Both the position numbers and the translations under genes were made by a program. From a virus, in the IMG/VR virus record IMGVR_UViG_3300027659_000015, positions 32,001 through 96,000 of that record: a stretch of 64,000 bases of DNA; one strand, given 5' to 3'. Every line of letters begins with the position of its first letter. Position 1 is the stretch's first letter. The notes beneath the pieces are model-generated. The model saw nothing but the letters and a program-made list of their open reading frames with translations. It was not told the DNA's origin and did no database searches. Positions 10,525-57,343 of this stretch are shown here, piece by piece.

Positions 10525-13500
10525 ATGGCAAATACAGTAACGATTATAAGTTATGCCAATACATTTGGTCAATGGATGGTTGCGACAGATGCTCTTATTG
10601 CAGAAAACAATACATTAGCAACAGGTGATTACACCAAAAATTCTGGTACAATTTTCCTCAGCGAAACAACAAAAAACGCACTGCAGTCAAACGGTAATAT
10701 CATCGTACAAAAACAACTCAGAGTACAAGGCTCAGGTTCATCCGCTTCTATTGATAATAATTTATCGGTTGATGGCCAAGTTTATTTTGGTAATACAACA
10801 TTAGGTTTAACTAATTCTGGCCAAGCCAACATCAATGGTCTTTTAATTGCTCAAGGACCAGGTACTGGGTTATATGTTTCCAATAGTGTATATATTGGTG
10901 GTAATACAACAATACAATATAATATATTAACAAATTCAATCCAATCCAATACATCAGTAAATACAAGAACAATTAGTGTCACAGGTAATACATATTCAAA
11001 TAATTTTATTGCAAATTCTTCTGCACAAATAAACAATTTAACTGTCGGTGGTTTAAGTAATTTAATTGGTACGACAAATGTTGGTGACATATATGTTTCC
11101 GGCACAGGTAATTTTAATACAACAATTAACGTTGATGATGGTATAATTGTTGCTGGTATTAATGTGGCACCACAGCTTACGGCAGCTTTTGTTAAAGCGA
11201 ATTCTGCTTATGAAGCACAAAATACTACAGGTTCATATGCAAACGGTGCTTACGGCCAAGCAAACTCAGCGGCTACATATGCCAATGGTGCTTTCCTTCA
11301 TGCTAATTCATCATTCAATTCTCAAAATACAACCGGTTCATATGCAAACGGTGCTTACGGCCAAGCAAATTCAGCAGCCTCATATGCTAACTCGGCCTTC
11401 ACAAATTCAAATTCTTCTTATTCACTCGCAAACAATATAGTCACAGGTACACAAAAATTAGATTGGGTGAGTGTAGGTAACACAACATTCACTTCTTCAT
11501 TACAGGCTAATACAACTGTTAATACTTCTAGTGTCTCTGTCACAAATAGAATAACAACAAAAGATATTACAGCAAATAATTCAATCACCTCACAAGGTTC
11601 TGTTGTATCCAATACCTTCACAGCGAATATTAGTGCTTCGATACCAACACTTACAATATCAACGAAACTTGATGGTAATGATGCAGCATTTTTTGCAAAC
11701 AGTTTATCTGTAGGTTCTGGTGGTTTAAGTATTAGTGGTAACTTTACTTTGACTGGTAGTACAATCTACGCTGCTAATACTTTCCAATTGAGTACTGGCG
11801 TTTCTGCTGGTATTTCTAGTTATATTTCAGTTGCTCGTGGTTCTTCTGGTCCAAATGCTGCATTCCGTTGGAATGAACCTTTGTTGTATTGGGAAACACT
11901 AGATGTAACAGGTAACATCTATTCACGTGTCATTACAGAAAACTATTTGGCTAATCAAACGGGTTCATATGCTAACTCAGCATTTGACAAAGCCAACTCT
12001 GCCTATGAATCACAGAATACGACAGGCACTTATGCCAACTCAGCATATACACAAGCAAATACCGCATTTAATAATGCAGCTGGTGCTTCTCTGTATGCTA
12101 ACGGTGCTTTCATTCAATCAAATGCAGCGTTCATTAAATCCAACTCTGCCTATGAATCACAGAATACGACAGGCACTTATGCCAACTCAGCATATACTCA
12201 GGCAAATACAGCAGTTAATAATGCAGTTGGTGCTTCTCTGTATGCTAACGGTGCATTTACACAATCTAATGCTGCTTTCATCAAAGCAAACTCAGCATAT
12301 GATTTAGCAAATACATTTGCCAATACTTTTGTTGGTACACAAGGTTCTGTTACACATTCTGGTGGTGTAATATCATTCTCAAGTAATAATGGTATAAAAA
12401 TTGTAGCTACAAGTGCAAACAATTTTGCTATTAGTTCACCACAAGACTTACAGACAGCAAATACACCAACATTTAATGGTTTAATCTTAACTAATGCTTT
12501 ACCGTTAAATCAAGGTGGTACAGGTGCAACATCATCTTCTGGAGCATTAACCAATATTTTACCAACGGGTGCAACAGCAGGTTATGTATTAACTACAGGT
12601 GGTCCAGGTAACTTTTATTGGTCCGCAAGTTCTGGTGGCGGCGGCGGTGGTGGTGTAACACCAGGTACTACAATCAACTCAACTCGTTTGTCATACACAG
12701 CTAATGGACAATCGGGTTATACAGGAAATTCTTTTGTTATACCAACCGCAACAACCGGTACACAAGTTCGTGCTTATATTAACGGTGTTAGACAATTTGA
12801 ATCTGAATATGCTTTAGATTTAAGTGCCAACACAATTGCATTTACAACAACACCACCAAGTGGTGATTCGATTCTTGTTGAAGTTGATGGATATTATGTA
12901 AATCCATATTACGCAAATAATATTACATTTACTGCACCCCAAGGTGACATTCCATCTTCTGCTAATACAATTCAATTAGCAATCAACGATCTTGAGAGTA
13001 GAAAAGCTGCATTGACTGGAGGTTCATTTACTGGCCGAGTCTTTGGTCTTACACCAAGTGTGGGTAATAATGACACAACTTTTGCTACAACAGCATTTGT
13101 TAAATCTTTATTGAATAATAGTAATACATTTACCTTAAATGCTGCAACCGTGACTAACGGTGTATACACTACATCAACTGGTGTTGTTACAAGTGCAATG
13201 ATGACAACAACTGGTATTTCTGCAGGTCAATATGGTACTACAACAGCTATACCACAATTTACAGTAGATACGGCCGGTAGAATTACTGCAATCGGTACAG
13301 TTGGTATTAGTATTCCTGCAGGAACGTCAATTTATGCTAACACAAATCAATTAGTCGCTAATGTCGCAACAGGAACAGTACAGATTGGTTTAGCAAATAC
13401 CAATACAAATATAGGAACTTTTGGTGGTGCAAGTACAGCAACAACTTTTGCTGTTGACGGTTACGGTAGGATTACAAGTGTGGCCAACGTAGCAATAGCA

Positions 13501-14016
13501 ATTGCTTCTAGTGCTGTTTCTGGTTTAGCATCATCAGCTACGACAGATACAACAAATGCTGGTAACATTGGTTCTGGTACTTTGGCTGCAGCAAGGCTTG
13601 GTACAACAATGCAACCACAACTTGGTACACTTGGTGTTGGTACTGCAGCACCAACGACAACTGGTCAAATCCGTGCTTCTGACAACATTACTGCTTTTTA
13701 CAGTTCAGATAAGAGATTGAAAGAGAACATACAAGATATTCCGGATGCATTATCTAAAGTTGGCTGTATTGGTGGTAAATTATTTGATTGGACAGATGAT
13801 TACGTATCAAAACATGGTGGCGCAGATGGTTACTTTGTACAAAAATCAGATTTTGGTGTTATTGCTCAGGATGTTCAACAAGTATTCCCTGTTGCTGTTC
13901 GCCAGAAACCAGATGGAACATTAGCAGTTGATTATGAAAAATTATGTGCTTTAGCATTTGCTGCTATTAAAGAACTCAAAGCTGAAGTTGATGCTCTAAA
14001 AGGAAATAATAAATGA
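10525..14016 (+). CDS. Tail fibre protein with ANxAF heptad repeats and C-terminal intramolecular chaperone (Peptidase S74-like)
   Basis: N-terminal ANTFGQWMVAT, heptad repeats, VDxxGR repeats, C-terminal SSDKRLKENI...GVIAQDVQQVFPVAV...VDYEKL...AIKELKAEVDALK autocleavage chaperone signature. Confidence 0.85.
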   Translation: MANTVTIISYANTFGQWMVATDALIAENNTLATGDYTKNSGTIFLSETTKNALQSNGNIIVQKQLRVQGSGSSASIDNNLSVDGQVYFGNTTLGLTNSGQANINGLLIAQGPGTGLYVSNSVYIGGNTTIQYNILTNSIQSNTSVNTRTISVTGNTYSNNFIANSSAQINNLTVGGLSNLIGTTNVGDIYVSGTGNFNTTINVDDGIIVAGINVAPQLTAAFVKANSAYEAQNTTGSYANGAYGQANSAATYANGAFLHANSSFNSQNTTGSYANGAYGQANSAASYANSAFTNSNSSYSLANNIVTGTQKLDWVSVGNTTFTSSLQANTTVNTSSVSVTNRITTKDITANNSITSQGSVVSNTFTANISASIPTLTISTKLDGNDAAFFANSLSVGSGGLSISGNFTLTGSTIYAANTFQLSTGVSAGISSYISVARGSSGPNAAFRWNEPLLYWETLDVTGNIYSRVITENYLANQTGSYANSAFDKANSAYESQNTTGTYANSAYTQANTAFNNAAGASLYANGAFIQSNAAFIKSNSAYESQNTTGTYANSAYTQANTAVNNAVGASLYANGAFTQSNAAFIKANSAYDLANTFANTFVGTQGSVTHSGGVISFSSNNGIKIVATSANNFAISSPQDLQTANTPTFNGLILTNALPLNQGGTGATSSSGALTNILPTGATAGYVLTTGGPGNFYWSASSGGGGGGGVTPGTTINSTRLSYTANGQSGYTGNSFVIPTATTGTQVRAYINGVRQFESEYALDLSANTIAFTTTPPSGDSILVEVDGYYVNPYYANNITFTAPQGDIPSSANTIQLAINDLESRKAALTGGSFTGRVFGLTPSVGNNDTTFATTAFVKSLLNNSNTFTLNAATVTNGVYTTSTGVVTSAMMTTTGISAGQYGTTTAIPQFTVDTAGRITAIGTVGISIPAGTSIYANTNQLVANVATGTVQIGLANTNTNIGTFGGASTATTFAVDGYGRITSVANVAIAIASSAVSGLASSATTDTTNAGNIGSGTLAAARLGTTMQPQLGTLGVGTAAPTTTGQIRASDNITAFYSSDKRLKENIQDIPDALSKVGCIGGKLFDWTDDYVSKHGGADGYFVQKSDFGVIAQDVQQVFPVAVRQKPDGTLAVDYEKLCALAFAAIKELKAEVDALKGNNK

Positions 14017-16954: not shown

Positions 16955-17296
16955 ATGCCAGCAGGTTACCAAGAATTATTTTTAGAACAAGGTTCGGAGT
17001 TCAACACATCCGTGACACTTGACAACGCCGATGGTTCACCTTATAGCTTGGTGAATTGTCAGGTTAAGTCATCTATGAAGAAGTCTTATTATTCAACTAA
17101 TTCCACGACAGAACTCACAGTTGACCTTAATAATCCATCACAAGGTATAATAATTTTAAGTTTAACATATAAACAAACAGCAAATATTGCTGCGGGTAGA
17201 TATGTATATGATGTTGCTGTTAAGGATTCTTCGAATACAGTATCCAGAGTTTTGGAAGGTATTGTAAACGTATCACCTAGAGTTACCGTATTTTAA
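16955..17296 (+). CDS. Conserved virion protein (Ig/BppU-like fibre anchor)
   Basis: LEQGSEF...GRYVYDV...RVLEGIVNVSPRVT pattern recurrent in T4-like aquatic phages; TAAATA late promoter upstream. Confidence 0.65.
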   Translation: MPAGYQELFLEQGSEFNTSVTLDNADGSPYSLVNCQVKSSMKKSYYSTNSTTELTVDLNNPSQGIIILSLTYKQTANIAAGRYVYDVAVKDSSNTVSRVLEGIVNVSPRVTVF

Positions 17297-17304
17297 GGTA
17301 GAAC

Positions 17305-17844
17305 ATGCCAACAGTAACAGTCAGACAACCAGCATCTGTCCGAGTAAAAATAGGTACATCTGCAAGACCAGAAACAGTACAAACAATTTCTTATGGTACA
17401 AAGACTTTAAGGAGTCTGAACGACCTAGGAATAACGGGTGCAAATACTGGTGATGTAATTGTGTATAATGCACAAACTGAAACTTTTAATGTCAGGCCTC
17501 TTGGTACTTCAACTCCAGTAACAGGTAATTTGTTACCATCACAACATCTAGAATATGATTTAGGATCACCAACACAGAGGTTCCGAAGTTTATATATTGG
17601 TTCAAACACAATTGATTTGGGTGGAACTATACTTAAAACTGATGCCAACACAGGTTCATTGGCCATTGCTGCTGCACCTACAGATAGATATCCAAATCCT
17701 GTAGCAATTTTGATAACACCACAAGGTGGATTTTCACCTGTACAAACGGTAGGTGGTGAAATTCCTGTTGGAGCATTAGACGCAACTGTATCAAGGTCTA
17801 TTACCTATTTGGCTTTCACAGGTGCTGATTCCGGATTCTTTTAA
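17305..17844 (+). CDS. Fibre-associated structural protein ending in DSGFF
   Basis: LRSLNDL, GDVIVYN and GNLLP...YDLGSPTQRFRSLYI...TIDLGG fibre motifs; domain shared with ORF 36320. Confidence 0.65.
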   Translation: MPTVTVRQPASVRVKIGTSARPETVQTISYGTKTLRSLNDLGITGANTGDVIVYNAQTETFNVRPLGTSTPVTGNLLPSQHLEYDLGSPTQRFRSLYIGSNTIDLGGTILKTDANTGSLAIAAAPTDRYPNPVAILITPQGGFSPVQTVGGEIPVGALDATVSRSITYLAFTGADSGFF

Positions 17845-18042
17845 ATGGCTAATACACACATACAAATATTAAGGTCGTATGCAAATACAGCACCAGAAAC
17901 TTTATTAGATGGTGAATTAGCGTATTCTTTTGTTTCACAAACATTGTTTATTGGTAATGTTTCCAATAATGTTGTGGGAATTGCTGGTCCGGGTTACTTA
18001 GCGAACTCAATTAGCACAATTGACGGTGGCAGTTTTTCATAA
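17845..18042 (+). CDS. Minimal Mtd_N/hyaluronidase-N-like connector protein
   Basis: 65 aa: IQILRS...LLDGELAYSF...LFIG, ending IDGGSFS. Confidence 0.65.
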   Translation: MANTHIQILRSYANTAPETLLDGELAYSFVSQTLFIGNVSNNVVGIAGPGYLANSISTIDGGSFS

Positions 18043-18087
18043 ATAGATAATAGGATTAAATCCAAACCAATAACAAGGATAATAATA

Positions 18088-20013
18088 ATGGCAAATACCT
18101 CAATCTTAATCAAACGTTCCACTACGTTAGGCAGACCAGTAAGCCTACAAGCTGGTGAGTTAGCGTACTCATACGCATCGAATACTATTTTTATTGGTTC
18201 ACCTGACGGTAATGGTGTTGTCAATGTTGGTGGTCAATACTACACCTCACAAATTGATGCAGCTACCAGTTCAAATACCGTAAGCACCATAGTTAAACGT
18301 GACGCAGCTGGTAACGTTTTCTTAGGCCACGCAAACGTCAGAAGTATTAGTTTCTCTGATGGTGGTGTATTAAGTAATACTTCTTTCTCAGGCAACGCAA
18401 ACTCAGCAACGCAATTCCAAACAGATAGATATATTAATGTTACTGGTGGTGACATTACTGCTTCTGCACAGTTGTTTAATGGTACTGCAAATGCAACATT
18501 AAGTGCTTCACTTAATACGATTGACGGTCTAACTGCTGGTGTCTATGGTGGTACAACAGTAATACCTATCATCCAAGTGTCTGCAAACGGTCGTGTTATG
18601 ACCATTGCCAACTCGGCAACTATCTCAACATCTTTGGGTATTGCTGGTGACACTGGTACCGATACTGTTTCACTCGCTACCGATACATTGACAATCACTG
18701 GTGGTGCAGGTCTTACATCAACCGTAACAAACAATCAAGTTTCTATTGATGTAGACAATACAGTTGTTCGTGCAAATACTGCATCATTGAATCAAACGAT
18801 TGATGGTAATATTACCATCAGCGGTAATCTTTCTGTCTTGGGTGATGTTACAAAATATGATGTAACAACAATGACAGTTGAAGATTCATTGATTGGTCTT
18901 GCAGCAAACAATTCAGGTGATGCAGTCGATATTGGTTTCGTTGGTTCATATAATGATGGTACGGCTCGTTCTGCTGGTTTGATTCGTCATGCTGGTGATG
19001 GTGCATACTATCTGTTTGATAATTATACAGGCGATCCAACAAGTAACGTAATTAACGTTTCATCTGGAACCTTCCGTCAAGCAAACTTGAGGTCAAACTT
19101 AGTTGCTGCATGGGCAAACACAACAGTATTACAAGTTGGTACATTAACAGTTGCCGGTTCGACAAACATCAAATCATTGTCATTAACTGATGCATTAACT
19201 GTTCCTAGTGGCGGTACTGGTGCAACTACATTCACCTCTGGTTCTATACTTGTTGGTGATGGTACAAGCTCATTAAAATTACTTGCAAATACAAACTTTG
19301 TTAAAACGGAAAGTGGTCCAACAACAGGCACACAAAATAATACTATCACATCTGTAACAGTAGATGCGTATGGTAGATTCACTGCTGCTACGTTCAATCA
19401 AATTTCTGGTCTAACAGTTGGCCAAGGCGGTACAGGTAAATCTACTTTTGCTGCTGGAAAAGTTGTTATTGGTAATGGCACAGGTGCTCTAGTAGAACTT
19501 GCAAATGTTACTTATGGATTGACTGGTACATTAGGTCAAGCTAAAACAATCACATCGTTAACAGTTGATGATTATGGCCGTGTAAGTGCAGCAACAGCAG
19601 AAGACATTTCTGGATTGACTGTTACACAAGGCGGTACTGGTGTAAACACATTCTCTTCTGGTAGAATGTTGATTGGTAATGGTTCTGGTGCAATTCAAAC
19701 AATTGCTAATGTTACTTACGCATTAACTGGTACACTAGGTGCTTCTAAGACAATCACAGCATTGACGGTTGATGCATACGGTCGTGTAAGTGCAGCTACT
19801 GCTTCAGATATTTCTGGATTGACTGTTACACAAGGCGGTACTGGTGCTTCTACATTTACCTCAAAAGGTATCGTATACGGTGATGGTACAAATGCTATGG
19901 CAGTTACTGCTGCAGCAGGTACGGCTGACCAAGCATGGTCTAACCAGATTCTTACAACAACTAATGCAGGTGTTCCTGTATGGACATCCTCTTTGGATGG
20001 AGGTCAATTCTAA
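18088..20013 (+). CDS. Tail fibre protein with Mtd_N-like N-terminus and ~68-aa VDxYGR/GGTG repeats
   Basis: ILIKRS...GELAYSY N-terminus; three ITSxTVDxYGR...SGLTVxQGGTG repeats; ends LDGGQF; AAGGA SD. Confidence 0.75.
   Translation: MANTSILIKRSTTLGRPVSLQAGELAYSYASNTIFIGSPDGNGVVNVGGQYYTSQIDAATSSNTVSTIVKRDAAGNVFLGHANVRSISFSDGGVLSNTSFSGNANSATQFQTDRYINVTGGDITASAQLFNGTANATLSASLNTIDGLTAGVYGGTTVIPIIQVSANGRVMTIANSATISTSLGIAGDTGTDTVSLATDTLTITGGAGLTSTVTNNQVSIDVDNTVVRANTASLNQTIDGNITISGNLSVLGDVTKYDVTTMTVEDSLIGLAANNSGDAVDIGFVGSYNDGTARSAGLIRHAGDGAYYLFDNYTGDPTSNVINVSSGTFRQANLRSNLVAAWANTTVLQVGTLTVAGSTNIKSLSLTDALTVPSGGTGATTFTSGSILVGDGTSSLKLLANTNFVKTESGPTTGTQNNTITSVTVDAYGRFTAATFNQISGLTVGQGGTGKSTFAAGKVVIGNGTGALVELANVTYGLTGTLGQAKTITSLTVDDYGRVSAATAEDISGLTVTQGGTGVNTFSSGRMLIGNGSGAIQTIANVTYALTGTLGASKTITALTVDAYGRVSAATASDISGLTVTQGGTGASTFTSKGIVYGDGTNAMAVTAAAGTADQAWSNQILTTTNAGVPVWTSSLDGGQF
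19606..19846 (+). repeat. 204-bp-period intragenic direct repeat (37-bp identical core)
   Basis: ATTTCTGGATTGACTGTTACACAAGGCGGTACTGGTG at 19606-19642 and 19810-19846. Confidence 0.85.
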
Positions 20014-20060
20014 GCTGACTATATAATGTAAATGTATTTTCTATATAATAGGAGTTTGAA

Positions 20061-20753
20061 ATGGGAAATGATAAGTATTTAAATCATTATGTTGAGATAT
20101 TGACCAGTACAATGACTGATTGTGTTGTTCGAAATGTCTCAATGCAAGCGAATGCTAAAATAACTGATGAGGTTGTAAAAGAACAGACTGAACAGATTGT
20201 TGAGTTGGTAAAGTTAAATGATGAACTAAAAGAAACAGTTCAACAATTAAAACAAACCAATTCTACAAATGAAAATAATGTCATAGAAGAGTTAAGGAAT
20301 AAGTTGGTTGAATCTGAAAGTCTTGTTACAAAACATAGACAAGAATATGAAGAATTGAACAACAAGTTTCGTGATTATGATAGTGTTAAGAATCAAGCAA
20401 TACACGTTGAAACTTTTAAAGGTGAATTGATTAGAGCCAGAGAAGAAACTAACCGAGTTCGAGTAGAACTTGAGAATGTAATCAACTCTACCAAGGCCGA
20501 AAATAATGGAAAAATTAATGGTATTACTGAACAGAATGAAAATTATGTTAAACAACTAATACAGTCACATGAAACCGAGAAAAGCAATCTAAACAATAAG
20601 ATTGCAGAATTGGTTGAAAAAATTGAATACTTACAACTACCTCCTGCCAAACGCAGAAAAATTGAAGAACAGCTTAATAAAGAAGTAGTATCAACGAACA
20701 TAATAAGTTTAGTTGATACTGAAAGTGTACTCAAGGATGGTGGAACGTTTTAA
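20061..20753 (+). CDS. Charged coiled-coil protein ending in DGGTF
   Basis: Glu/Lys/Asn-rich heptad sequence, AGGAG SD, composition unlike the flanking Thr/Ala/Gly-rich fibre genes. Confidence 0.75.
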   Translation: MGNDKYLNHYVEILTSTMTDCVVRNVSMQANAKITDEVVKEQTEQIVELVKLNDELKETVQQLKQTNSTNENNVIEELRNKLVESESLVTKHRQEYEELNNKFRDYDSVKNQAIHVETFKGELIRAREETNRVRVELENVINSTKAENNGKINGITEQNENYVKQLIQSHETEKSNLNNKIAELVEKIEYLQLPPAKRRKIEEQLNKEVVSTNIISLVDTESVLKDGGTF

Positions 20754-20757
20754 GTAA

Positions 20758-21231
20758 ATGTCAAACACAGCAATACAGTTAAAAAAATCAGGCGTAACAG
20801 GAAACACACCATCAGGTCTTGCATTTGGTGAGGTTGCTCTCAACTACGCCGATGGAAAACTGTATTATAAAAACAGTCTTGGTGGTAGTTCATATATTAG
20901 TAACCAATTCTCGTTTGATACAATCAACTCAAACAACTCCCTAATACTTGCGGGAGGCATTTCAGACACTCTGTCTATTGCTGCTGGTAATAATATAACC
21001 ATCAGTACTAATACCACCACAAAAACAATCACAATCAATGCTGTTGATTCTGTTACAGATGCGAGAGCATATGCACATGCCAATGCTGCGTATGCGTCTC
21101 AAAATACAACACTATCCTTTGCTACCGCAGCGTTTATTCAGGCTAATGCAGCCTTTGCCAAAGCAAATACGGGAACAACAGCTCTCGATGTGAACTCCGA
21201 TATTGTTGCATTTACTATCGCATTTAGTTGA
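20758..21231 (+). CDS. Mtd_N-like connector protein with hydrophobic C-terminal tail
   Basis: IQLKKS...GEVALNYADGKLYY N-terminus, ANAAF heptads, ends DIVAFTIAFS. Confidence 0.7.
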   Translation: MSNTAIQLKKSGVTGNTPSGLAFGEVALNYADGKLYYKNSLGGSSYISNQFSFDTINSNNSLILAGGISDTLSIAAGNNITISTNTTTKTITINAVDSVTDARAYAHANAAYASQNTTLSFATAAFIQANAAFAKANTGTTALDVNSDIVAFTIAFS

Positions 21232-21262
21232 TGTAATAAATAGAAGATAATAGGAAATTCAA

Positions 21263-21589
21263 ATGGCAAATACATTTAAAAATCAAGTAAAGGCGGCAGT
21301 AGGAACATCACCACAGACCATCTATACTACTGCTGTTGGTGTATCAACTACAATCATTGGTATGACGATTGCTAATCTACTGAACACAACAATAACGGCA
21401 AATGTAATTCTAAACTCTGGTGGTACAGACTATTACATGGTTAAAATGGCACCAATTGATCCAGGTAATTCTTTGATTACTATTGGTGGTGAACAAAAAT
21501 TAGTAATGACAGCCAACGATGTACTTAAAGTTTCAACAAGTAATGCTTCATCAGCTGATGTTATTTTAAGTTTATTGGAATTAACATAG
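21263..21589 (+). CDS. Small fibre adaptor protein (paralogue of 39069..39425)
   Basis: MANTFKN...TIIGMTIAN...KLVMTANDVLKV...ILSLLELT; late promoter and AGGA SD upstream. Confidence 0.7.
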   Translation: MANTFKNQVKAAVGTSPQTIYTTAVGVSTTIIGMTIANLLNTTITANVILNSGGTDYYMVKMAPIDPGNSLITIGGEQKLVMTANDVLKVSTSNASSADVILSLLELT

Positions 21590-21590
21590 T

Positions 21591-21857
21591 ATGAAATTCG
21601 CATACATTGGTGACCAAGGAAATAAAGAAATACGGATAGTTGGAACTACCGCCAACAGTTCTTTCCAAAAAGCCAATTCAGCAGCAGTTGCCGCACAAGC
21701 GGCCTTCAATCAGGCCAATGCTGCATATGCCTATGCAAATACCGGTGGTGCTGGTGGAACCACAATTAATAATTATCTTGGTTTTCCTTTCCTTGATTTA
21801 GGTTTCATTAGTGAACCTATAGAGAATCGAACAGTTGATTGTGGAACACTAGCATAA
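21591..21857 (+). CDS. Short linker fibre protein (YIG start, DCG end)
   Basis: 88 aa, MKFAYIG..., ANxAF heptads, ends VDCGTLA. Confidence 0.65.
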   Translation: MKFAYIGDQGNKEIRIVGTTANSSFQKANSAAVAAQAAFNQANAAYAYANTGGAGGTTINNYLGFPFLDLGFISEPIENRTVDCGTLA

Positions 21858-21886
21858 ATATTAAATAATATACGGATTAACCATTC

Positions 21887-24800
21887 ATGTCTACACAGTT
21901 ACAATTTAGAAGAGGTAATACGACACAGACAAGTGCCTTCACGGGTGCTGTGGCCGAAATTACCGTCAACACGGACAATTATAGCATTGTTGTACATGAT
22001 GGAAATACTCCTGGTGGTTTCCAGGTATCAACGGCAGCACAAGGTGCAGCTACTTTAAGTATCGCTACTGGTGCTTTCACCAAAGCCAATGCGGCTTTTG
22101 AAGCAGCCAATAATGTGGCACCACAAATTGCACCGGCTTTTAATACTGCCAATTCGGCAGGTATCTATGCTAACGGTGCCTTTACACAAGCAAATGCTTC
22201 TTATGGTCAATCAAATTCTGCTGCATCATATGCCAACTCAGCATTCACGGCAGCCAATACTGCTGATAGTAAAGCAGTTACTTCTGGTTCATATGCTAAT
22301 TCCGCTTTAACGGCAGCCAATACGGCAGAGTCAAAAGCGATAACAGCAGGATTATATGCCAACTCAGCTTTCACAGCAGCCAATACTGCTGATAGTAAAG
22401 CAGTAACAGCCGGCAGTTATGCCAACTCAGCGTTCAATACGGCTAATTCAGCATTTGATGTAGCTAATTCAGCAAGTATCTATGCTAACGGTTCTTTCAA
22501 TCAAGCCAATGCTTCATATGGCCAAGCAAACTCTGCTTCGTCATATGCTAATGCTGCTTTCTCTACGGCAAATTCTAAATTTAATTCATCTGGCGGTACA
22601 ATATCAGGTGACACACTCGTTGCTGGTAATCTAACTGTTACAGGTACAACATTCTATGCTAATACAGTAAACTTATTAGTAAAAGATAATATCATTACAT
22701 TAAATTCTAATGTAACTGGTACACCAACACAAGATTCTGGTATTGAAGTTAATCGTGGCAATCAAACAAACACAGCTTTGATATGGAGTGAATCTAAGAA
22801 ATACTGGCAGTTCACTAATGATGGTACGAACTATAGTAATATAGCTGCTTCATCAGCAGAATCATACGCTAACTCAGCATTCATTAAATCTAATTCATCA
22901 TATGGTCAGGCCAATTCAGCATCATTATATGCTAATGGAGCCTTTGAACAGGCTAATGCAGCATTTGCATCAGCTAATAATGTAGCACCACAAGTTGCAC
23001 CAGCATTTAGTACTGCAAATTCGGCTGCCTTGTATGCTAATAGTGCATTTGTCCAGGCCAATGCTTCATATGAAAAGGCAAACTCAGCTGGCATTTATGC
23101 TAATGGTTCTTTCATACAATCAAATTCTTCTTTTGGTACTGCCAATTCTGCGGCAAGTTACGCTAACTCAGCCTTCTTAGCAGCCAACACAGCAGATAGT
23201 AAAGCAGTAACAGCTGGTAGTTATGCTAATTCATCTTTCTTGGCCGCAAATACTGCTGATTCCAAGGCAGTAACAGCAGGTTCGTATGCTAACTCATCTT
23301 TCTTAGCAGCAAATACGGCAGATAGTAAAGCAATAAGTGCTGGCAGTTATGCTAACTCAGCATTTATAGCAGCCAATATAGCTGACAATAAGGCGGTAAC
23401 GACAGGTATATACGCCAACTCAGCCTTCTTAGCAGCCAATACGGCAGATTCAAAGGCAGTAAATGCCGGATCATATGCTAACTCAGCCTTTACATCAGCT
23501 AATACAGCAGACAGCAAGGCAGTAACAGCAGGATTATATGCTAACTCAGCATTCACGGCAGCCAATACGGCAGATTCAAAGGCAGTAACAGCAGGTTCTT
23601 ATGCTAACTCAGCCTTTACAGCAGCTAATACGGCAGATTCAAAGGCAGTAACAGCAGGTTCTTATGCTAACTCAGCATACACTCAGGCAAATACTGCCAC
23701 CACTAATGCAGCAACTGCTGATTCTAAAGCAGTAACATCAGGTAGTTATGCTAATTCAGCATTCACAGCAGCTAATACGGCAGATTCAAAGGCAGTAACA
23801 GCAGGTTCTTATGCTAACTCAGCCTTTACAGCAGCTAATACGGCTGATTCTAAAGCTGTTTCTGCTGGTACATATGCTAACTCTGCATATGCTCGTGCTA
23901 ATAATAGTATCAATGCAAATACTGGTGGTACAATTACCGCAGATTTGATTATTACTGGTAACTTAACAGTTCAAGGTAATACGACTTATGTTAATACACA
24001 AACAATCGCCACACAAGACTCGTTAATTCGTCTTGCTAATAATAATACTATTGGTGATACAGTTGATATTGGTATTTACGGTGCATATAATCCTGGTGGT
24101 GGTGTAAAGTATACCGGTCTTGTTAGACAAGCTGGTGCAAATTATTTCTTATTTCAAAATTTAACTACTGACCCAACCGCAAACGTATTATCTCCGGGGT
24201 CATTGACTGCTGCTAACACAGGCACATTGACTGCCAATTTAACATCGTATGCTGTTTCAATTAATGGTATTGATGTTGAAACAAATCAAACTAGAATTTT
24301 TACACAAGCAAATTCAGCATTTGCAACTGCTAATTCTGCTGGTGTTTATGCCAACTCTGCCTTTACTGCAGCTAATATATCAGACTCTAAGGCAGTTACG
24401 GCTGGCAATTATGCCAACTCGGCATTCACGGCAGCCAATACTGCTGATAGTAAAGCAGTTTCTGCTGGTTCATATGCCAACTCAGGATATATTCAAGCAA
24501 ATACGGCTACTACCAATGCAGCAACGGCTGATAGCAAAGCAGTAACAGCTGGTTCATATGCCAATTCAGCATTTGGTGTTGCTAATACTGCTGTAAGCAA
24601 TGCAGCTGGTGCTTCTCTGTATGCTAATGGCGCTTTCAGTCAAGCAAATGCCGCTTACGCAGCAGCTAATGCAGCAGGATCTAGTGCAACAGTTGTTGCT
24701 GCCTTCATACAAGCAAACTCGGCATTTGGTACGGCAAACTCAGCAGCACTCTATGCTAATGCTGCGTTCTTAGCAGCCAACAATTCTTCAGATTCTTGGG

Positions 24801-25867
24801 TTAGAGGTCAAGCAAATGCGGCCTTCATACAAGCCAATGCAGCATTCGCAGTAGCCAATTCTGGTTCAGGATCAGCATCATCTGGTGTGTATGCTAACGG
24901 TGCTTTTGCTCAAGCCAATGCAGCATTCAATAAGGCAAATACACTTACAACTACCGGTTATGTTGATGCGTTTACCGCTGATGGTGCCAACAGTAGTTTC
25001 GTATTGTCAACGATACCGGCTAATAAGAATGTAACCTTTGTTGCTGTACAAGGTGTCTTACAACCTAAATCAACATACAGTTTAACTGGTTCTACATTAA
25101 CATTTGATTCGATTCCACCCAATACTGCTATTATTGAAGTTACAACTCTAGTAACAACTGGTGGTAGTAATGCTGGTGGTGCAGGAAATATAACATACAG
25201 AAGTTATACAGGTAATAATACAACATCAAGTTTTACCGTAACTTCTGGTATGACCGCCAACACAATATTCGTGGCAGAAAACGGTATTCTACAAAGACCA
25301 GGTACAGATTATACAGTATCAGGTACAACTCTAACATTCAATACAACTCCAGCTACTGATGTTGATATTCAAGTCCGTGAATTGTCATTAGGTGGTGATC
25401 CAAGTTTTGCTTTTGATGCAGCTAACTCAGCAGGATTATATGCTAACGCTGCCTTCTTAGCAGCCAATAATGCTTCCGATTCATGGGTCAGAAATCAGGC
25501 GAATGCTGCATTTGGTACGGCTAACTCAGCAGCATCGTATGCTAACTCAGCATTTGCAGCAGCTAATACATCTTCAATTACATGGTCTATTGTAAATACA
25601 AACAGTACAATGGCAGCGAGACAAGGTTATTTTGTTGATACAACAACTGCTCCTATAACAATGACACTACCAACAAGTGCAACACTAGGTGATACTATTC
25701 GTATCAATGATTTGGCGGGAACATTTAGTGCAAATAATTTAACAGTAGCAAGAAATGGTCATAAGATTCAAGGTATTGCTAACGATTTATTAGTGAACGT
25801 AAACCAAAGTAGTTTTGGTTTGGTATACAGTAACAGTACATACGGCTGGAAGGTAATAGAACTATAA
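21887..25867 (+). CDS. Long fibre shaft protein with major-tropism-determinant N-terminal (Mtd_N-like) domain and extensive heptad repeats
   Basis: MSTQLQFRRGNT...FTGAVAEITVNTD...VVHDG.TPGG; ANSAFTAANTADSKAVTAGSY repeats; two beta-sandwich domains; C-terminal GYFVDTT...LTVARNG..IQG...YGW domain. Confidence 0.85.
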   Translation: MSTQLQFRRGNTTQTSAFTGAVAEITVNTDNYSIVVHDGNTPGGFQVSTAAQGAATLSIATGAFTKANAAFEAANNVAPQIAPAFNTANSAGIYANGAFTQANASYGQSNSAASYANSAFTAANTADSKAVTSGSYANSALTAANTAESKAITAGLYANSAFTAANTADSKAVTAGSYANSAFNTANSAFDVANSASIYANGSFNQANASYGQANSASSYANAAFSTANSKFNSSGGTISGDTLVAGNLTVTGTTFYANTVNLLVKDNIITLNSNVTGTPTQDSGIEVNRGNQTNTALIWSESKKYWQFTNDGTNYSNIAASSAESYANSAFIKSNSSYGQANSASLYANGAFEQANAAFASANNVAPQVAPAFSTANSAALYANSAFVQANASYEKANSAGIYANGSFIQSNSSFGTANSAASYANSAFLAANTADSKAVTAGSYANSSFLAANTADSKAVTAGSYANSSFLAANTADSKAISAGSYANSAFIAANIADNKAVTTGIYANSAFLAANTADSKAVNAGSYANSAFTSANTADSKAVTAGLYANSAFTAANTADSKAVTAGSYANSAFTAANTADSKAVTAGSYANSAYTQANTATTNAATADSKAVTSGSYANSAFTAANTADSKAVTAGSYANSAFTAANTADSKAVSAGTYANSAYARANNSINANTGGTITADLIITGNLTVQGNTTYVNTQTIATQDSLIRLANNNTIGDTVDIGIYGAYNPGGGVKYTGLVRQAGANYFLFQNLTTDPTANVLSPGSLTAANTGTLTANLTSYAVSINGIDVETNQTRIFTQANSAFATANSAGVYANSAFTAANISDSKAVTAGNYANSAFTAANTADSKAVSAGSYANSGYIQANTATTNAATADSKAVTAGSYANSAFGVANTAVSNAAGASLYANGAFSQANAAYAAANAAGSSATVVAAFIQANSAFGTANSAALYANAAFLAANNSSDSWVRGQANAAFIQANAAFAVANSGSGSASSGVYANGAFAQANAAFNKANTLTTTGYVDAFTADGANSSFVLSTIPANKNVTFVAVQGVLQPKSTYSLTGSTLTFDSIPPNTAIIEVTTLVTTGGSNAGGAGNITYRSYTGNNTTSSFTVTSGMTANTIFVAENGILQRPGTDYTVSGTTLTFNTTPATDVDIQVRELSLGGDPSFAFDAANSAGLYANAAFLAANNASDSWVRNQANAAFGTANSAASYANSAFAAANTSSITWSIVNTNSTMAARQGYFVDTTTAPITMTLPTSATLGDTIRINDLAGTFSANNLTVARNGHKIQGIANDLLVNVNQSSFGLVYSNSTYGWKVIEL
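23162..23875 (+). repeat. 63-bp (21-aa) tandem repeat array: 10 units plus one 84-bp unit
   Basis: Units encode ANSAFxAANTADSKAVxAGxY; 714 bp = 10x63 + 84; e.g. TACGGCAGATTCAAAGGCAGTAACAGCAGGTTCTTATGCTAACTCAGC at 23566, 23629 and 23776. Confidence 0.9.
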
Positions 25868-28800
25868 TGGCAACGACAAATTTAACGAATTTAAAAGCAA
25901 ATGCTTTTACTGATGTTGTAAGTACAATTGTAAATACAACTAGTATTATATCTACAACTCCAAAAGTTACAAGTATAACTTATCCAGGAAATGATACTGC
26001 GGCTAATACAGGTGGTGGACAAACAATTACATTAACTGGAACAGGATTTAGTTCAGGTGCTTCGATTCTTATCAATGCTACATATGCTGGTGTTGTAACA
26101 GTAGTCAGTAATACAACTATAACATTCACTTCACCAGCACAAAATGCTGGTACTTACACACTATATGTTATTAATTCTGATGGTGGTACAGCCATTTCTA
26201 TTCCTGGTATTAGTTATAGTGGAACACCAACATGGACAACTGCGGCTGGTACTTTAGGAACAAGTTACGAAACTGCTGCAATCAGTAACAGTTTGACTGC
26301 AACTGGTGATCCAACAATCAGTTATAGTTTATATTCAGGTACATTACCACCAGGAAGTTCATTGAATTCTTCAACTGGTTTATTATCTGGAACATCACAA
26401 GCAACAGCTAGTTCCACAACTTATAACTTCACAATTCGTGCTACTGATGGACAGAATCAGGACACAGATAGAGCATTTAGTATTACCATAAGTCCAGATG
26501 TTGTAAGTTGGAGTTCTCCTGCGGATAATTCCAGCACTTCTGTGTATGAATATGCTACAATAACACCAGTCACACTAGCCGCTTCTAGTGCAGCAGGTAA
26601 ATCTATTACATATACAGCGAATACTTTACCAACAGGTTTGACGATAAGTGGTAATACAATTTCTGGAACACCGACTGTAGTTGCTAATACGTTTACACAA
26701 GTTACTGCTAATTCAGCAAACACTTTCAGAACAGCCACTAAAAATATTAGTTTCATTGTTAATCCGGATGTAGTCACTTGGAGTTCACCTGCTGACGGTA
26801 CAAGTACCTCTTTGTTTGCAGATACAGCAATGTCAAATGTTACATTGAGTGCAGCTTCTGCGGCAGGTAAATCAATCACATATAGTGCGAATACTTTACC
26901 AACCGGAGTTACTATTACTGGTGCGGTAGTTAATGGAACACCAACTGTTCCTGGAACAACTAATAGTTTGATTACAGCAACAGCTGCAACGACAAATAGA
27001 ACTGCTACAAGAAACTTTACATGGGTAGTTAGTGTTGCTAACGATACTTACTTTAAATATACCACCTTGTTATTGAACGGTGAAACAACTTCTAATTCAT
27101 TCATTGCTGATGCAAGTACAAATAGTTTTGGATCAAATATTAATGGTGATACAAAACCTGTGTTGTTTAATCCATATCAAGGCGATGGGTATTATAGTAA
27201 TTACTTTGATGGTACCGGGGATTATCTATCGCTATCGTCTGCTATAGTGCCGGCTACTGGTAATTTCACTATTGAATTTTGGATTTATAGCTTGACCAAT
27301 GCAGGCTCAGCCCAACGTGCAGTTTATGCTCAGTATTCAGGTGGCACGAGCGGACGATTTATGTTTGGTCTAGACCAAAGTTCCTCTTCTAGAATTTGGC
27401 TACATTATAATGGTACCGACTACGTTGGAACGACCAATGGCATACTTCCTAATACTTGGACGCATCTTGCTTTAGTAAGAAACGGAGATGTATTCAATAT
27501 GTATGTGAATGGTGCACTGAACGCTACTAACACTTTTGCAGGCGCATCATTACAACAAATTGCTGGCAACATTGGTGGTATGGGTGGCAGTTTTAATGTT
27601 AATGCACAAGTTAGCAACTTACGAATTGTAGTCGGCACCGCAGTCTACACCGCTGCATTCACTCCAAGCACAACACCATTAACAGCGATAGCAAACACAA
27701 GTTTATTAACATGCCAAAGTAATAGATTTATTGATAACTCAACTAACAATTTTGCAATCACTAAAGTAGGTGATACAACAATATCACCCAACATACCATT
27801 CACTGCAAACGCTAGTTACAGCACTTATGGTAGCACATACTTTGATGGTACTGGGGATTATTTAAGTATAGCAAGCAATAGTGCATTTGCTTTTGGAACA
27901 GGTGATTTTACTGTTGAAGGATGGTATTATTCAACTGCCGGAAATGGAAGATTTACTTTATATGATTCTGGTTCAGGTGGCGGAAACGGACAATTTTCTA
28001 TATTCCAAGATAGTGCTTCTGGTTTTTATGTACGCATGGGAGGTGATATAACGTATGCATCTCCTCCAGGAAATAATCAATGGGTTCATTTTGCTGTAAC
28101 AAGATCCGGTACAACTGTAAGATTATTTTTTAATGGAATATTGGCTGTTAGCGGAACTCAATCTACTAATATAACAAACAATACACCGTACATTGGTTTA
28201 TTAAATGGATATGGTTATCCAATGAATGGTTATATTTCTGATTTGAGAGTAGTTAAAGGTACCGCAGTATACACAACAACCTTTACACCACCTACATCAC
28301 CACTAACAGCAATAGCAAACACAAGTTTACTAACACTACAATACAACGGTGGCGCAACTAATCAAGGTATTATAGACAACAGTAATTTCAACAATATTAT
28401 CACACGTAATGGTAACACAAGTCAAGGCACATTTAGTCCTTATAGTGTGACAGGTTGGAGTAATTACTTTGATGGTACAGGCGACTATATTAATGCAGGT
28501 TCGGGTGCATCGGTAAATATGACTGGTGATTTCACAGTTGAAATGTGGATATATGGTACTAATACAAGTTGGACTGGCGGAGATGTAATTGGCGCCACTT
28601 GTTTGGTGGACACAAGAGACCAATCAAACGCTACAGAAAATAATCGACTTGCACTTTCCATGAACAGTACTGGATCATATCCTAGTTTCTATAATGCGGG
28701 AACAAATGTATCAACCGCTTCAACTATTCCAGCTAATGTTGGTGTGTGGAATCATATTGCTTATTCACGCAGTGGTTCTACTATAAAGATTTTTGTAAAT

Positions 28801-56002: not shown

Positions 56003-57343
56003 ATGTTTCTAACAGAAGAATTACAACAAAAGTGGTCACCAGTTCTGAATCATCCAGAACTCGAAGCCATTAAAGACCCATACAAGAAAGCAGTTACTGC
56101 TCTTGTTTTGGAAAACCAACAACAAGCTATGGCTCAAGACCGTCAGTCTTTGAACGAAACTACATCTGCTACACCAACTAACGTTGCCGGTGGTGTTTCG
56201 AACTATGACCCAATCTTGATTTCATTGGTTCGCCGTGCTTTGCCTAATCTAATTGCTTATGACGTTGCTGGCGTTCAGCCAATGACTGGTCCTACCGGTT
56301 TGATTTTTGCAATGCGTGCTCGTTACAACGCACAATCTGGTGGCCCATCTAACAGTAATGAAGCATTCTTCAATGAAGCAAATACCGAATTCTCTGGTAC
56401 TTCTTCTGTTGCTAATCCATACGGCTTCCGTGGTAACAATGCAACTGACGTTGTTACAAACGCTGGTGCTGACTTGACTGCTAACAGTTACACAACTGGT
56501 ATTCCTTTGCCAACAGCTACTGCTGAAGGTTTGGGTGCAGATTCTGGTGTTGCTTTCCAACAAATGGCATTCTCTATTGAGAAAGTTACTGTTACTGCTC
56601 AGTCACGTGCTTTGAAGGCCGAGTACTCACTTGAACTTGCTCAAGACTTGAAGGCAATCCATGGTTTGGATGCTGAAACAGAATTGTCAAACATTCTGTC
56701 TACAGAAATTTTGGCTGAAATCAACCGTGAAGTTATCCGTACCATTTATACTTGTGCCGTAGCCGGTGCTCAGTATGGTACTACTACTGCTGGTGCTTTC
56801 GACTTGGACACCGACTCTAACGGTCGTTGGTCTGTTGAGCGTTTTAAAGGTTTGATTTTCCAAATTGAACGTGATGCTAACGTAATTGCTAAGCAAACTC
56901 GTCGTGGTAAAGGTAACGTGATGATTGTATCATCTGACGTTGCTTCTGCTATGGCAATGGCTGGTGTGTTGTCTTACACTCCAAACCTGTCTGCTGACCT
57001 ACAAGTTGATGACACAGGCAATACATTTGCTGGTTTGTTACATGGTCGTATCAAGGTTTATATCGATCCTTATTTTGGTGGTTATACATCAAACCAAGAA
57101 TTGGTTACAATCGGTTATAAAGGTTCATCTCCTTATGACGCTGGTATCTTCTATTGCCCATACGTACCGTTGCAAATGGTTCGTGCAATTGACCAGGCTA
57201 CATTCCAACCAAAAATTGGTTTCAAGACTCGTTACGGCATGGTTGCAAACCCATTCGCTACAGGATTGACAAGTGGTAACGGCGCATTGAACGCACGTTC
57301 AAACGTTTACTATCGTATCTTTGCCGTCAAAAACTTGATGTAA
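56003..57343 (+). CDS. gp23: Major capsid protein gp23
   Basis: KWSPVL, DPILISLVRR..PNLIAYD..GVQPMTGPTGLIFAMR, SRALKAEYSLELAQDLKAIHGLDAE.EL, FQPKIGFKTRYG. Confidence 0.98.
   Translation: MFLTEELQQKWSPVLNHPELEAIKDPYKKAVTALVLENQQQAMAQDRQSLNETTSATPTNVAGGVSNYDPILISLVRRALPNLIAYDVAGVQPMTGPTGLIFAMRARYNAQSGGPSNSNEAFFNEANTEFSGTSSVANPYGFRGNNATDVVTNAGADLTANSYTTGIPLPTATAEGLGADSGVAFQQMAFSIEKVTVTAQSRALKAEYSLELAQDLKAIHGLDAETELSNILSTEILAEINREVIRTIYTCAVAGAQYGTTTAGAFDLDTDSNGRWSVERFKGLIFQIERDANVIAKQTRRGKGNVMIVSSDVASAMAMAGVLSYTPNLSADLQVDDTGNTFAGLLHGRIKVYIDPYFGGYTSNQELVTIGYKGSSPYDAGIFYCPYVPLQMVRAIDQATFQPKIGFKTRYGMVANPFATGLTSGNGALNARSNVYYRIFAVKNLM

What the first reader, a model, noticed from the sequence alone, without database searches (positions are those of the whole stretch)
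17305..22050. Daisy chain of C-terminal D-G-G-x-F tails followed by Mtd_N-like N-terminal domains
Seen: five ORFs end in the same motif: DSGFF (17827-17844), DGGSFS (18022-18042), DGGQF (19996-20013), DGGTF (20736-20753) and DCGTLA (21837-21857). In four of the five cases the next gene starts with an (I/L)-(Q/L)-x-x-(R/K)-(S/G)...(G/A)E-hydrophobic domain: 17845 IQILRS..GELAY, 18088 ILIKRS..GELAY, 20758 IQLKKS..GEVAL and 21887 LQFRRG..AEITV. This resembles the N-terminal domain of Bordetella phage Mtd and of streptococcal phage hyaluronidases. ORF 17845 (65 aa) is essentially one socket plus one plug, like a pure extender. Inference: DGGxF is the ligand of the Mtd_N-like domain.
Basis: partly seen in the sequence, partly recalled or inferred. 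Interest (0 to 1): 0.82.

Follow-up and report, generated by a model that had tools for sequence, protein, structure and literature searches.

The report
Tail-to-head connectors chaining phage fibre proteins
In this T4-like freshwater phage, consecutive tail-fibre genes end in a short conserved peptide and the next gene begins with a matching N-terminal domain. This is very likely the same joint that links gp36 to gp37 in phage T4, used here several times in a row, and it may give a sequence rule for how multi-protein fibres are assembled.

Summary
Genes A (17305-17844), B (17845-18042), C (18088-20013) and D (20061-20753) end in D-[G/S]-G-x-F. Gene G (21591-21857) ends in DCGTLA. B, C, E (20758-21231) and H (21887-25867) start with a small four-strand N-terminal domain.

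- **Chance:** four terminal motifs occur where 0.009 are expected, and only one internal copy exists in the 105.7-kb record.
- **Conservation:** the tails persist in relatives down to 42% identity, with free synonymous codon change.
- **Domain identity:** only H is a Pfam Mtd_N member. B, C and E are relatives of the T4 gp37 N-terminus (hhalign 96%, E 4e-9 for E) and only remotely of Mtd_N (90%, E 1.6e-6).
- **Known joint:** T4 gp36, known to bind the gp37 N-terminal region, ends DFGYY. BPP-1 Bbp9, just upstream of Mtd, ends DLGGIA.
- **Enrichment:** 35 of 62 Mtd_N genes have a D-x-G-x-[LIVM] tail upstream (background 5 of 526). 31 of 34 gp37N-type genes have x-G-G-x-[FY] upstream.
- **Co-fold:** 3xB with 3xC(1-120) scored ipSAE 0.77 against 0.02 for the best control. 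The interface is B residues 53 and 55-65 with C residues 1-14, 17, 21 and 26.

Verdict: this is a real, widespread, non-covalent connector. It is a new variant and generalisation of the T4 gp36-gp37 joint. The C-to-D joint and the linear order of the chain remain inferred.

The parts
16955..17296 (+). Z, 113-aa Ig-like protein that opens the module. It is context and not itself a connector.
   Evidence: phrog_1084 at 4.9e-21 and phrog_3304 at 5.9e-18. A homologous small gene sits in the same position in Limnohabitans phage DC31 and Prochlorococcus phage MED4-213.
17305..17844 (+). A, 179-aa initiator protein with tail DSGFF (17827-17841).
   Evidence: In relatives the tail is D[ASM]G[FMT]F when B follows. 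It is DGG[NDT]F when B is absent and C follows directly (L037-L039, L051).
17845..18042 (+). B, 65-aa mini-adaptor made of one N-terminal domain (about residues 1-48) plus one tail (residues 55-65, ending DGGSFS).
   Evidence: Alignment A5. In the co-fold, residues 53 and 55-65 form the whole interface with C.
18088..20013 (+). C, 641-aa fibre segment with an N-terminal domain at 18088 to about 18230 and tail DGGQF at 19996-20010.
   Evidence: Alignments A3 and A6. hhalign against the T4 gp37 N-terminus gives 61%, E 8e-5. The interface residues are 1-14, 17, 21 and 26. The AF2 monomer has strands at 8-11, 25-28, 33-37 and 44-46.
20061..20753 (+). D, 230-aa coiled-coil protein with a conserved N-terminal 40 aa, no gp37N/Mtd_N-type domain, and tail DGGTF (20736-20750).
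   Evidence: The family always sits between C-type and E-type genes. D-type proteins that lack a tail are not followed by a gene with the N-terminal domain in 9 of 13 contigs.
20758..21231 (+). E, 157-aa fibre segment with an N-terminal domain at 20758 to about 20900. It has a different, hydrophobic C-terminus.
   Evidence: hhalign of A4 against T4 gp37 residues 1-60 gives 96%, E 4.1e-9. The ESM Atlas places it near an Mtd_N cluster (0.89, 185 shared features, TM 0.68/0.70). The AF2 monomer has strands at 8-11, 26-29, 34-38 and 44-46.
21263..21589 (+). F, 108-aa protein between E and G. It may be an adaptor of a second joint type (context).
   Evidence: phrog_1276 at 3.1e-8. It is conserved in relatives.
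21591..21857 (+). G, 88-aa protein with tail DCGTLA (21837-21854).
   Evidence: In L022 and L002 the G N-terminus is fused directly to the repeat fibre, with no tail and no N-terminal domain inside. This tail class is D-x-G-x-[LIVM]-x, the one found upstream of canonical Mtd_N genes.
21887..25867 (+). H, 1326-aa fibre with a canonical Mtd_N domain at residues 6-41 (21902-22009).
   Evidence: Pfam PF18454 at 5.5e-10, 39.4 bits against a cut-off of 26.3, and 45 bits. It is 52% identical to BPP-1 Mtd over the first 54 aa.

Best explanation
These genes encode segments of a multi-protein tail fibre that are joined non-covalently, tail to head. The last ~10 residues of each chain of the upstream trimer end in D-x-G-x-aromatic (or D-x-G-x-aliphatic-x before canonical Mtd_N). 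They lie along the first beta-strand (residues 4-11) of the small N-terminal domain of the downstream trimer, in the groove between neighbouring subunits. The terminal aromatic packs against the conserved G-E-L-A strand.

This is the joint type of T4 gp36 to gp37, reused serially: A to B, B to C, D to E and G to H. B is a 65-aa adaptor that is little more than one acceptor domain plus one tail.

What is shown:
- the motifs and their conservation;
- enrichment in both directions;
- covariation between tail class and domain class;
- homology to the T4 gp37 N-terminus;
- a controlled co-fold of B with C.

What is inferred:
- actual binding;
- the beta-strand geometry;
- that partners follow gene order;
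- that the tail of C docks on the helical N-terminus of D.
For: - **Positional enrichment:** 4 terminal motifs against 0.009 expected in the record.
- **Conservation at peptide level:** seen in 69 loci down to 42% identity, with synonymous codon turnover.
- **Known archetype:** T4 gp36 ends DFGYY and gp37 starts with the same domain. In 21 T-even-like contigs the tail is always DFG[YT][YF]. [quoted passage not shown]
- **Homology:** the E class against T4 gp37N gives 96%, E 4e-9. The broad profile A8 against Mtd_N gives 90%, E 1.6e-6.
- **BPP-1:** Bbp9, immediately upstream of mtd, ends DLGGIA.
- **Enrichment upstream of Mtd_N genes:** 35 of 62 non-redundant upstream ORFs end D.G.[LIVM].{0,2}, against 5 of 526 other ORFs, p 5e-34.
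- **Enrichment from the tail side:** of 62 in-frame DGGxF tails found by a motif-only scan, 27-30 are followed by a gene with the N-terminal domain, against 34 of 971 ORFs overall. 31 of 34 gp37N-type genes have x-G-G-x-[FY] upstream.
- **Class covariation:** aromatic-ended tails go with gp37N-type domains (31 of 31) and aliphatic-ended tails with canonical Mtd_N (35 of 35), p 1.6e-19.
- **Covariation with gene content:** the tail of A changes type when B is missing. D-type proteins without a tail are not followed by a gene with the domain.
- **Rosetta-stone fusion:** G and H are one protein in L022, with neither tail nor domain inside.
- **Independent chains elsewhere:** L108 and the cultured phages MED4-213, DC31, AH02, HTVC008M, CRP-3 and Vibrio 1.021.A.
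- **Co-fold of 3xC(1-120) with 3xB:** ipSAE 0.77 against a best control of 0.02. That mark was reached by 58 of 80 solved complexes and 2 of 110 mismatched pairs. The runs agree in at least 95% of contacts and partner pLDDT is at least 83. The interface is B 53 and 55-65 with C 1-14, 17, 21 and 26.
- **Not a remembered structure:** no chain for gp36 or the gp37 N-terminus exists in the PDB copy, so a pass from memory is unlikely.
Against: - No binding has been measured. The co-fold used my own shallow alignments and six chains, outside the tool's calibration.
- 27 of 62 canonical Mtd_N genes have no such tail upstream, so the domain can attach by other means.
- The tail of C is followed by D, which lacks the domain. 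That link was not tested.
- The four DGGxF tails are nearly alike, so what fixes the order of assembly is unexplained.
- With narrow alignments the link to Mtd_N is not significant.
- The AF2 monomers are of low confidence (pLDDT 56 and 65), and Foldseek gave no significant match.
- Many loci are related lineages, so the counts are not fully independent.
- A DGGxF end also occurs on an unrelated ~340-aa protein upstream of UvsX-like genes.
Confidence: 0.78

Rival explanations
1. The tails do bind the N-terminal domains, but not in gene order. Any DGGxF tail can dock on any gp37N-type domain, which would give a branched or mixed fibre set rather than one linear A-B-C-D-E chain.
For: The four DGGxF tails differ little. 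There are five tails but only four N-terminal domains in the record. The tail of C has no adjacent domain of this type.
Against: Position -6 is tail-specific and conserved: L/I/M in C, K/E in D and I/F/A in B. The tail of A changes when B is absent. Gene order tracks assembly order in T4 gp36-gp37.
Confidence: 0.1
2. The tail is a C-terminal folding, trimerisation or chaperone-recognition signal for its own protein. On this view it lies next to genes with the N-terminal domain only because of conserved fibre-gene order.
For: Many fibres fold from the C-terminus and need chaperones encoded just downstream. D resembles a small coiled-coil protein placed after a fibre gene. In cyanophage-like contigs D is the last gene of the cluster.
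Against: This does not explain the covariation between tail class and domain class. It does not explain the loss of both elements in the G-H fusion. It does not explain a 65-aa protein consisting only of domain plus tail. It does not explain a co-fold interface made of the tail.
Confidence: 0.08
3. The conserved gene ends and gene starts are recombination or translation signals at module boundaries (shared DNA junctions, a Shine-Dalgarno-like GGNGG), with no protein-protein role.
For: The joints flank highly exchangeable distal modules. E varies from 136 to 1759 aa behind a constant N-terminus.
Against: Synonymous variation occurs at every tail codon, and the distance to the next start varies from 1 to 73 nt. 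The second tail class has no GGNGG. The motif is conserved across unrelated phage groups at the amino-acid level only.
Confidence: 0.02

Closest known systems
Phage T4 distal half-fibre joint, gp36 to gp37
   Same: The upstream trimer ends D-F-G-Y-Y. The downstream protein starts with the same four-strand N-terminal domain (hhalign 96% to the E class). The genes are adjacent with an 8-nt gap. gp36 is known to bind the gp37 N-terminal region (PMC3004832).
   Different: T4 uses the joint once, whereas this phage uses it four times or more in series. The tail-bearing proteins here are not gp36 homologues (no PF03903 hit). The papers I could search do not describe the tail motif as the binding element, and no atomic structure of the joint is in the PDB copy.
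Bordetella phage BPP-1 Mtd (Pfam Mtd_N, PDB 1YU0) with upstream Bbp9
   Same: The N-terminus of H is a bona fide Mtd_N domain (52% identical to Mtd over 54 aa). Bbp9 ends D-L-G-G-I-A, like the DCGTLA of G.
   Different: B, C and E fail the Pfam model and relate to Mtd_N only at profile level. Whether Bbp9 binds Mtd through its tail has not been shown. Mtd is a terminal receptor-binding tip, not a chain link.
Bead-chain neck fibre of cyanophage A-1(L), gp82-gp81(x14)-gp80 (PMC10966104)
   Same: Separate small trimers connect head to tail non-covalently, through N-terminal beta elements of the next trimer.
   Different: It is a neck fibre, not a tail fibre, and is a homopolymer of one bead. No sequence relation was found, and a C-terminal D-x-G-x-aromatic tail is not reported there.
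N-terminal adaptor/anchor domains of branched receptor-binding proteins (T4 gp10-like domains in CBA120 or G7C-type tailspikes)
   Same: A conserved N-terminal module anchors an exchangeable distal module to another virion protein.
   Different: The fold and logic differ. There the docking is domain to domain, not a terminal peptide docking on a beta-prism. This comparison rests on general knowledge and was not tested here.

Membership tests
Pfam PF18454 Mtd_N | Score above the curated gathering threshold (26.3 bits) | tested here: met
   This holds for H only: 39.4 bits, E 5.5e-10, and 45 bits in the genome search.
Pfam PF18454 Mtd_N | Same threshold applied to B, C and E | tested here: not met
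   No hit at E <= 0.1 for the proteins starting at 17845, 18088 and 20758. Narrow-profile hhalign against an Mtd_N alignment gives E 0.03-0.28.
Pfam PF18454 Mtd_N (superfamily level) | Profile-profile relationship of the gp37N-type domains to Mtd_N | tested here: met
   A8 (44 diverse sequences) against A2 (33 Mtd_N sequences) gives 90%, E 1.6e-6 over 39 columns. A local run gave 89%. The ESM Atlas lead points the same way.
Pfam PF18454 Mtd_N | Trimeric beta-prism fold as in PDB 1YU0 | tested here: inconclusive
   The AF2 monomers have the same strand order and spacing but pLDDT of only 56 and 65. Foldseek lists four Mtd entries only at E 1.6-2.8.
T4 gp37 N-terminal (gp36-binding) region | Sequence homology to T4 gp37 residues 1-48 | tested here: met
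   E class: 96%, E 4.1e-9, 36% identity. C class: 61%, E 8.1e-5. B aligns in the same family alignment but was not scored alone.
T4 gp37 N-terminal (gp36-binding) region | The immediately upstream gene product ends D-x-G-x-[FY] | tested here: met
   T4 gp36 ends DFGYY. In 21 T-even-like loci the tail is DFG[YT][YF]. In the window the tails are DSGFF, DGGSFS and DGGTF before B, C and E.
T4 gp37 N-terminal (gp36-binding) region | The upstream partner physically binds this region | not testable with these tools
   This is established for T4 (PMC3004832). Here there is only a model: ipSAE 0.77 against a best control of 0.02, a mark reached by 58 of 80 solved and 2 of 110 mismatched pairs.
Pfam PF03903 Phage_T4_gp36 | The tail-bearing partner is a gp36 homologue | tested here: not met
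   T4 gp36 hits PF03903 at 9.6e-53. A, B, C, D and G have no such hit.
Streptococcal phage hyaluronidase (HylP) N-terminal region | Sequence or fold similarity to the HylP N-terminus | not tested
   There are only non-significant Foldseek rows (6x3m, 2c3f, 2dp5 at E 1.7-3.0). No HylP sequence was compared.

The most novel reading that the evidence does not exclude
The C-terminal D-x-G-x-hydrophobic tail and the gp37N/Mtd_N-type N-terminal domain form a general connector code for phage fibres. It would have at least two non-interchangeable classes: aromatic-ended tails with gp37N-type domains, and aliphatic-ended tails with canonical Mtd_N. Mini-adaptors such as B (65 aa) or the 69-aa protein of L108 would extend the chain or convert between classes. 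If so, the assembly order of multi-protein fibres, including T4 gp36-gp37 and BPP-1 Bbp9-Mtd, could be read from sequence across the more than 26,000 protein clusters that carry the domain.
Probability: 0.5. Interest if true: 0.75.

Novelty: new variant of a known kind. Interest (0 to 1): 0.62.

Why it matters
Tail fibres decide which bacteria a phage can infect. Many environmental phages build them from several unannotated proteins whose order and contacts are unknown.

A simple rule could assign partners from sequence alone: the upstream protein ends D-x-G-x-aromatic or D-x-G-x-aliphatic, and the downstream protein starts with a gp37N/Mtd_N-type domain. That rule would link two textbook systems (the T4 long tail fibre and BPP-1 Mtd) through one mechanism. 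It would also mark natural break points where distal receptor-binding modules are exchanged.

The domain is very common. It occurs in 26,780 clusters at 50% identity with E <= 1e-3, and almost always at residue 1. All of the genes concerned are annotated 'hypothetical protein' in the cultured phages MED4-213 and DC31.

Tried and rejected
- **Nucleotide signal:** a Shine-Dalgarno-like signal in the DGG codons is rejected by synonymous variation and variable spacing.
- **Programmed read-through:** A and B are in frame and contiguous in the window, but lie in different frames with an 8-nt gap in L002 and relatives, so read-through is rejected.
- **Pfam and PHROGs on B, C, D and E:** no informative family.
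- **Narrow-profile hhalign against Mtd_N:** not significant. Only a diversified profile worked.
- **PDB sequence searches:** the three N-terminal-domain profiles, T4 gp36 and the T4 gp37 N-terminus gave nothing relevant.
- **AF2 monomers of E and C(1-120):** low confidence. Foldseek against the PDB gave no match at E <= 0.001.
- **tblastn of the first 60 aa of C against cultured phages:** no match. The whole protein found DC31, MED4-213 and P-HM1.
- **DNA search of the region against cultured phages:** only a 104-bp hit.
- **Short (<= 110 aa) hits of the representative search:** these look like truncated ORFs and none carries a tail, so mini-adaptors could not be counted this way.
- **Five literature searches** **and five papers read**: I found no description of the tail motif. 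This does not prove that none exists.
- **First complex-prediction run:** it failed because the machine was busy, and was repeated unchanged.
Full report
**What the window is.** All genes lie on the plus strand. The major capsid protein (56003-57343) is 64% identical to those of Methylophilales phage Melnitz and Pelagibacter myophages. Sheath, tube, portal and gp46/47-like genes follow. The window is part of a 105.7-kb IMG/VR record of a T4-like myovirus. The region 10.5-44 kb is a long run of fibre-like genes.

**The observation.** The ORF listing and direct translation confirm the following genes:

| Gene | Coordinates | Length | C-terminal end |
|---|---|---|---|
| A | 17305-17844 | 179 aa | DSGFF |
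| B | 17845-18042 | 65 aa | DGGSFS |
| C | 18088-20013 | 641 aa | DGGQF |
| D | 20061-20753 | 230 aa | DGGTF |
| G | 21591-21857 | 88 aa | DCGTLA |

- B, C, E (20758-21231) and H (21887-25867) begin with the pattern hydrophobic-x-hydrophobic-basic-basic-S/G, then 12-14 residues, then G/A-E-hydrophobic.
- In the complete record, D[GSA]G.F ends four proteins where 0.009 are expected, and occurs only once internally. All tails and all such N-terminal domains lie in this cluster.

**Conservation.**
- Sixty-nine IMG/VR loci with relatives of C or D (42-88% identity) keep the order A-B-C-D-E and keep every tail.
- Codons for D, G and F vary synonymously, and the intergenic gaps range from 1 to 73 nt. 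Selection is therefore on the peptide.
- Each tail has its own conserved residue before the aspartate: L/I/M in C, K/E in D and I/F/A in B.
- When B is absent (L037-L039, L051), A ends DGG[NDT]F instead of D[ASM]GFF and is followed directly by C.
- E keeps its first ~95 residues while the rest varies from 136 to 1759 aa.

**What the N-terminal domain is.**
- Only H passes Pfam Mtd_N.
- B, C and E do not pass, and narrow profile comparisons with Mtd_N fail.
- The T4 genome shows that gp37 begins with the same module. The E-class profile matches gp37 residues 5-48 at 96% probability, E 4e-9, and the C class matches at 61%, E 8e-5.
- A diversified profile of 44 such N-termini relates to Mtd_N at 90%, E 1.6e-6.
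- AF2 monomers of E and C show four short strands at the same positions as the Mtd_N pattern, but with low confidence. Foldseek lists Mtd and HylP entries only at non-significant E-values.
- The domain is abundant. It is found in 26,780 clusters at E <= 1e-3 and sits at residue 1 in 148 of the 150 best.

**The link to known biology.**
- T4 gp36 ends DFGYY, 8 nt before gene 37. In 21 T-even-like contigs the tail is always DFG[YT][YF].
- The T4 literature states that trimeric gp36 binds the N-terminal region of gp37 (PMC3004832).
- In BPP-1 the gene just upstream of mtd, bbp9, ends DLGGIA.
- The PDB copy holds no chain for gp36 or the gp37 N-terminus. A 2026 T4 preprint models the distal rod only at low resolution, with predicted models.

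- Starting from 80 IMG/VR loci chosen only for a canonical Mtd_N gene start, 35 of 62 non-redundant upstream ORFs end D.G.[LIVM].{0,2}. The commonest ends are DYGSLA and DYGTL. The background is 5 of 526 other ORFs, p 5e-34.
- Starting from a scan for the DNA of DGGxF plus a stop codon, there were 62 non-redundant in-frame tails. Of these, 27-30 are followed by a gene with the N-terminal domain and 12-14 by a D-type coiled coil. The domain's overall frequency is 34 of 971 ORFs.
- Of those 34 genes with the domain, 31 have x-G-G-x-[FY] upstream, including variants the scan could not have selected.
- Tail class and domain class covary perfectly in these sets, p 1.6e-19.

**Independent chains.**
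- L108 carries, in order: a 100-aa protein ending DGGNF; a 443-aa protein with the domain, ending DGGTF; a 69-aa protein with the domain, ending DYGSLV; and then a canonical Mtd_N gene.
- Cultured phages show the same arrangement under 'hypothetical protein' labels: MED4-213, Limnohabitans DC31, Pseudomonas AH02, HTVC008M, Roseobacter CRP-3 and Vibrio 1.021.A.

**Fusion evidence.** In L022 a 961-aa protein has the N-terminus of G, the repeat type of H and the C-terminus of H, with neither tail nor N-terminal domain inside. This is what is expected if tail plus domain substitute for a peptide bond.

**Structure prediction of the joint.**
- Three copies of C(1-120) with three copies of B gave ipSAE 0.77 (runs 0.79, 0.77, 0.77) against 0.00-0.02 for three controls.
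- That mark was reached by 58 of 80 solved complexes and 2 of 110 mismatched pairs.
- Contact agreement between runs was at least 95%, and partner pLDDT was at least 83.
- The confident interface is B 53 and 55-65 with C 1-14, 17, 21 and 26.
- Tail residues 58-64 run in register with residues 4-11 of C. F64 lies next to K9, S11 and A26.
- This is a model made with my own alignments, not a measurement.

**Open points.**
- D has no such domain, yet it always follows the tail of C, in cyanophage-like contigs too. There D is a 55-83-aa coiled coil. Where D lacks a tail, the next gene is a gp13-like neck gene, not a gene with the N-terminal domain.
- D may be a structural link, a distal cap or an assembly factor. 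Its binding to the tail of C is inferred only.
- Twenty-seven of 62 Mtd_N genes lack the upstream tail, so other attachment modes exist.
- What enforces the order among nearly identical DGGxF tails is unknown.

**Verdict.** The finding is real and the interpretation largely correct. The correct reference system is the T4 gp36-gp37 joint. I therefore rate it a new variant and generalisation of a known kind, of moderate to high interest.

The scan's other first-stage notes on this stretch (e1-5982969, e1-5982977) describe the same idea. None had been followed up.

Noticed in passing
window 21202-21228 (end of E); 39040-39064 (end of the 915-aa ORF 36320-39067): There may be a second joint type. 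E ends in a conserved hydrophobic peptide (IVAFTIAFS) whatever its length, from 136 to 542 aa. It is followed by a ~110-aa protein (F) and then a protein starting MKFAYIG (G). ORF 36320 ends AMAIIFGG and is followed by a 118-aa ORF and then an ORF starting ..NYGVIG. In unrelated contigs a similar AIAVALG end lies 4 nt upstream of canonical Mtd_N genes.
   Followed up: partly
L022:9703-12588 and L002:9795-12356 versus window 21591-25867: G and H are separate genes in the window but a single 961-aa or 853-aa protein in close relatives. This indicates recent fission, fusion or module replacement at this joint.
   Followed up: yes
L161-L220 (e.g. L217, L219); L153:5227-5433: A family of 55-83-aa coiled-coil proteins, related to the N-terminus of D, follows C-type fibre genes in cyanophage-like contigs. 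These usually lack a tail and are followed by a gp13-like neck gene. PHROGs gives only 'unknown function'.
   Followed up: partly
L183:2512-3558, also L188, L190, L228, L229: A ~340-aa non-fibre protein ending [LM]DGGxF lies directly upstream of UvsX-like genes in five contigs. The motif alone, without fibre context, is therefore not diagnostic.
   Followed up: partly
L278:1256-3772 (Aeromonas phage MQM1): A different C-terminal end (EGD[VI]FI[QS]L) occurs on two consecutive proteins, one of them upstream of an Mtd_N-like gene. It may be another tail variant.
   Followed up: no
window 25867-30981 and 31030-36279: Two tandem giant ORFs (1704 and 1749 aa) have identical C-terminal 15 residues. 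Other first-stage notes describe LamG cassettes and 90-bp repeats here.
   Followed up: no
window 10525-14016: This 1163-aa fibre has a C-terminal Peptidase_S74 intramolecular chaperone domain (E 1.9e-13). It is a separate fibre that does not use the tail and N-terminal-domain joint.
   Followed up: no
window 16955-17296; L152:4350-4706; L153:2968-3306: A 112-118-aa Ig-like protein (phrog_1084/3304) always opens the module, just before the first tail-bearing protein. This holds in the window, in DC31 and in MED4-213. It may be the link to the baseplate.
   Followed up: no
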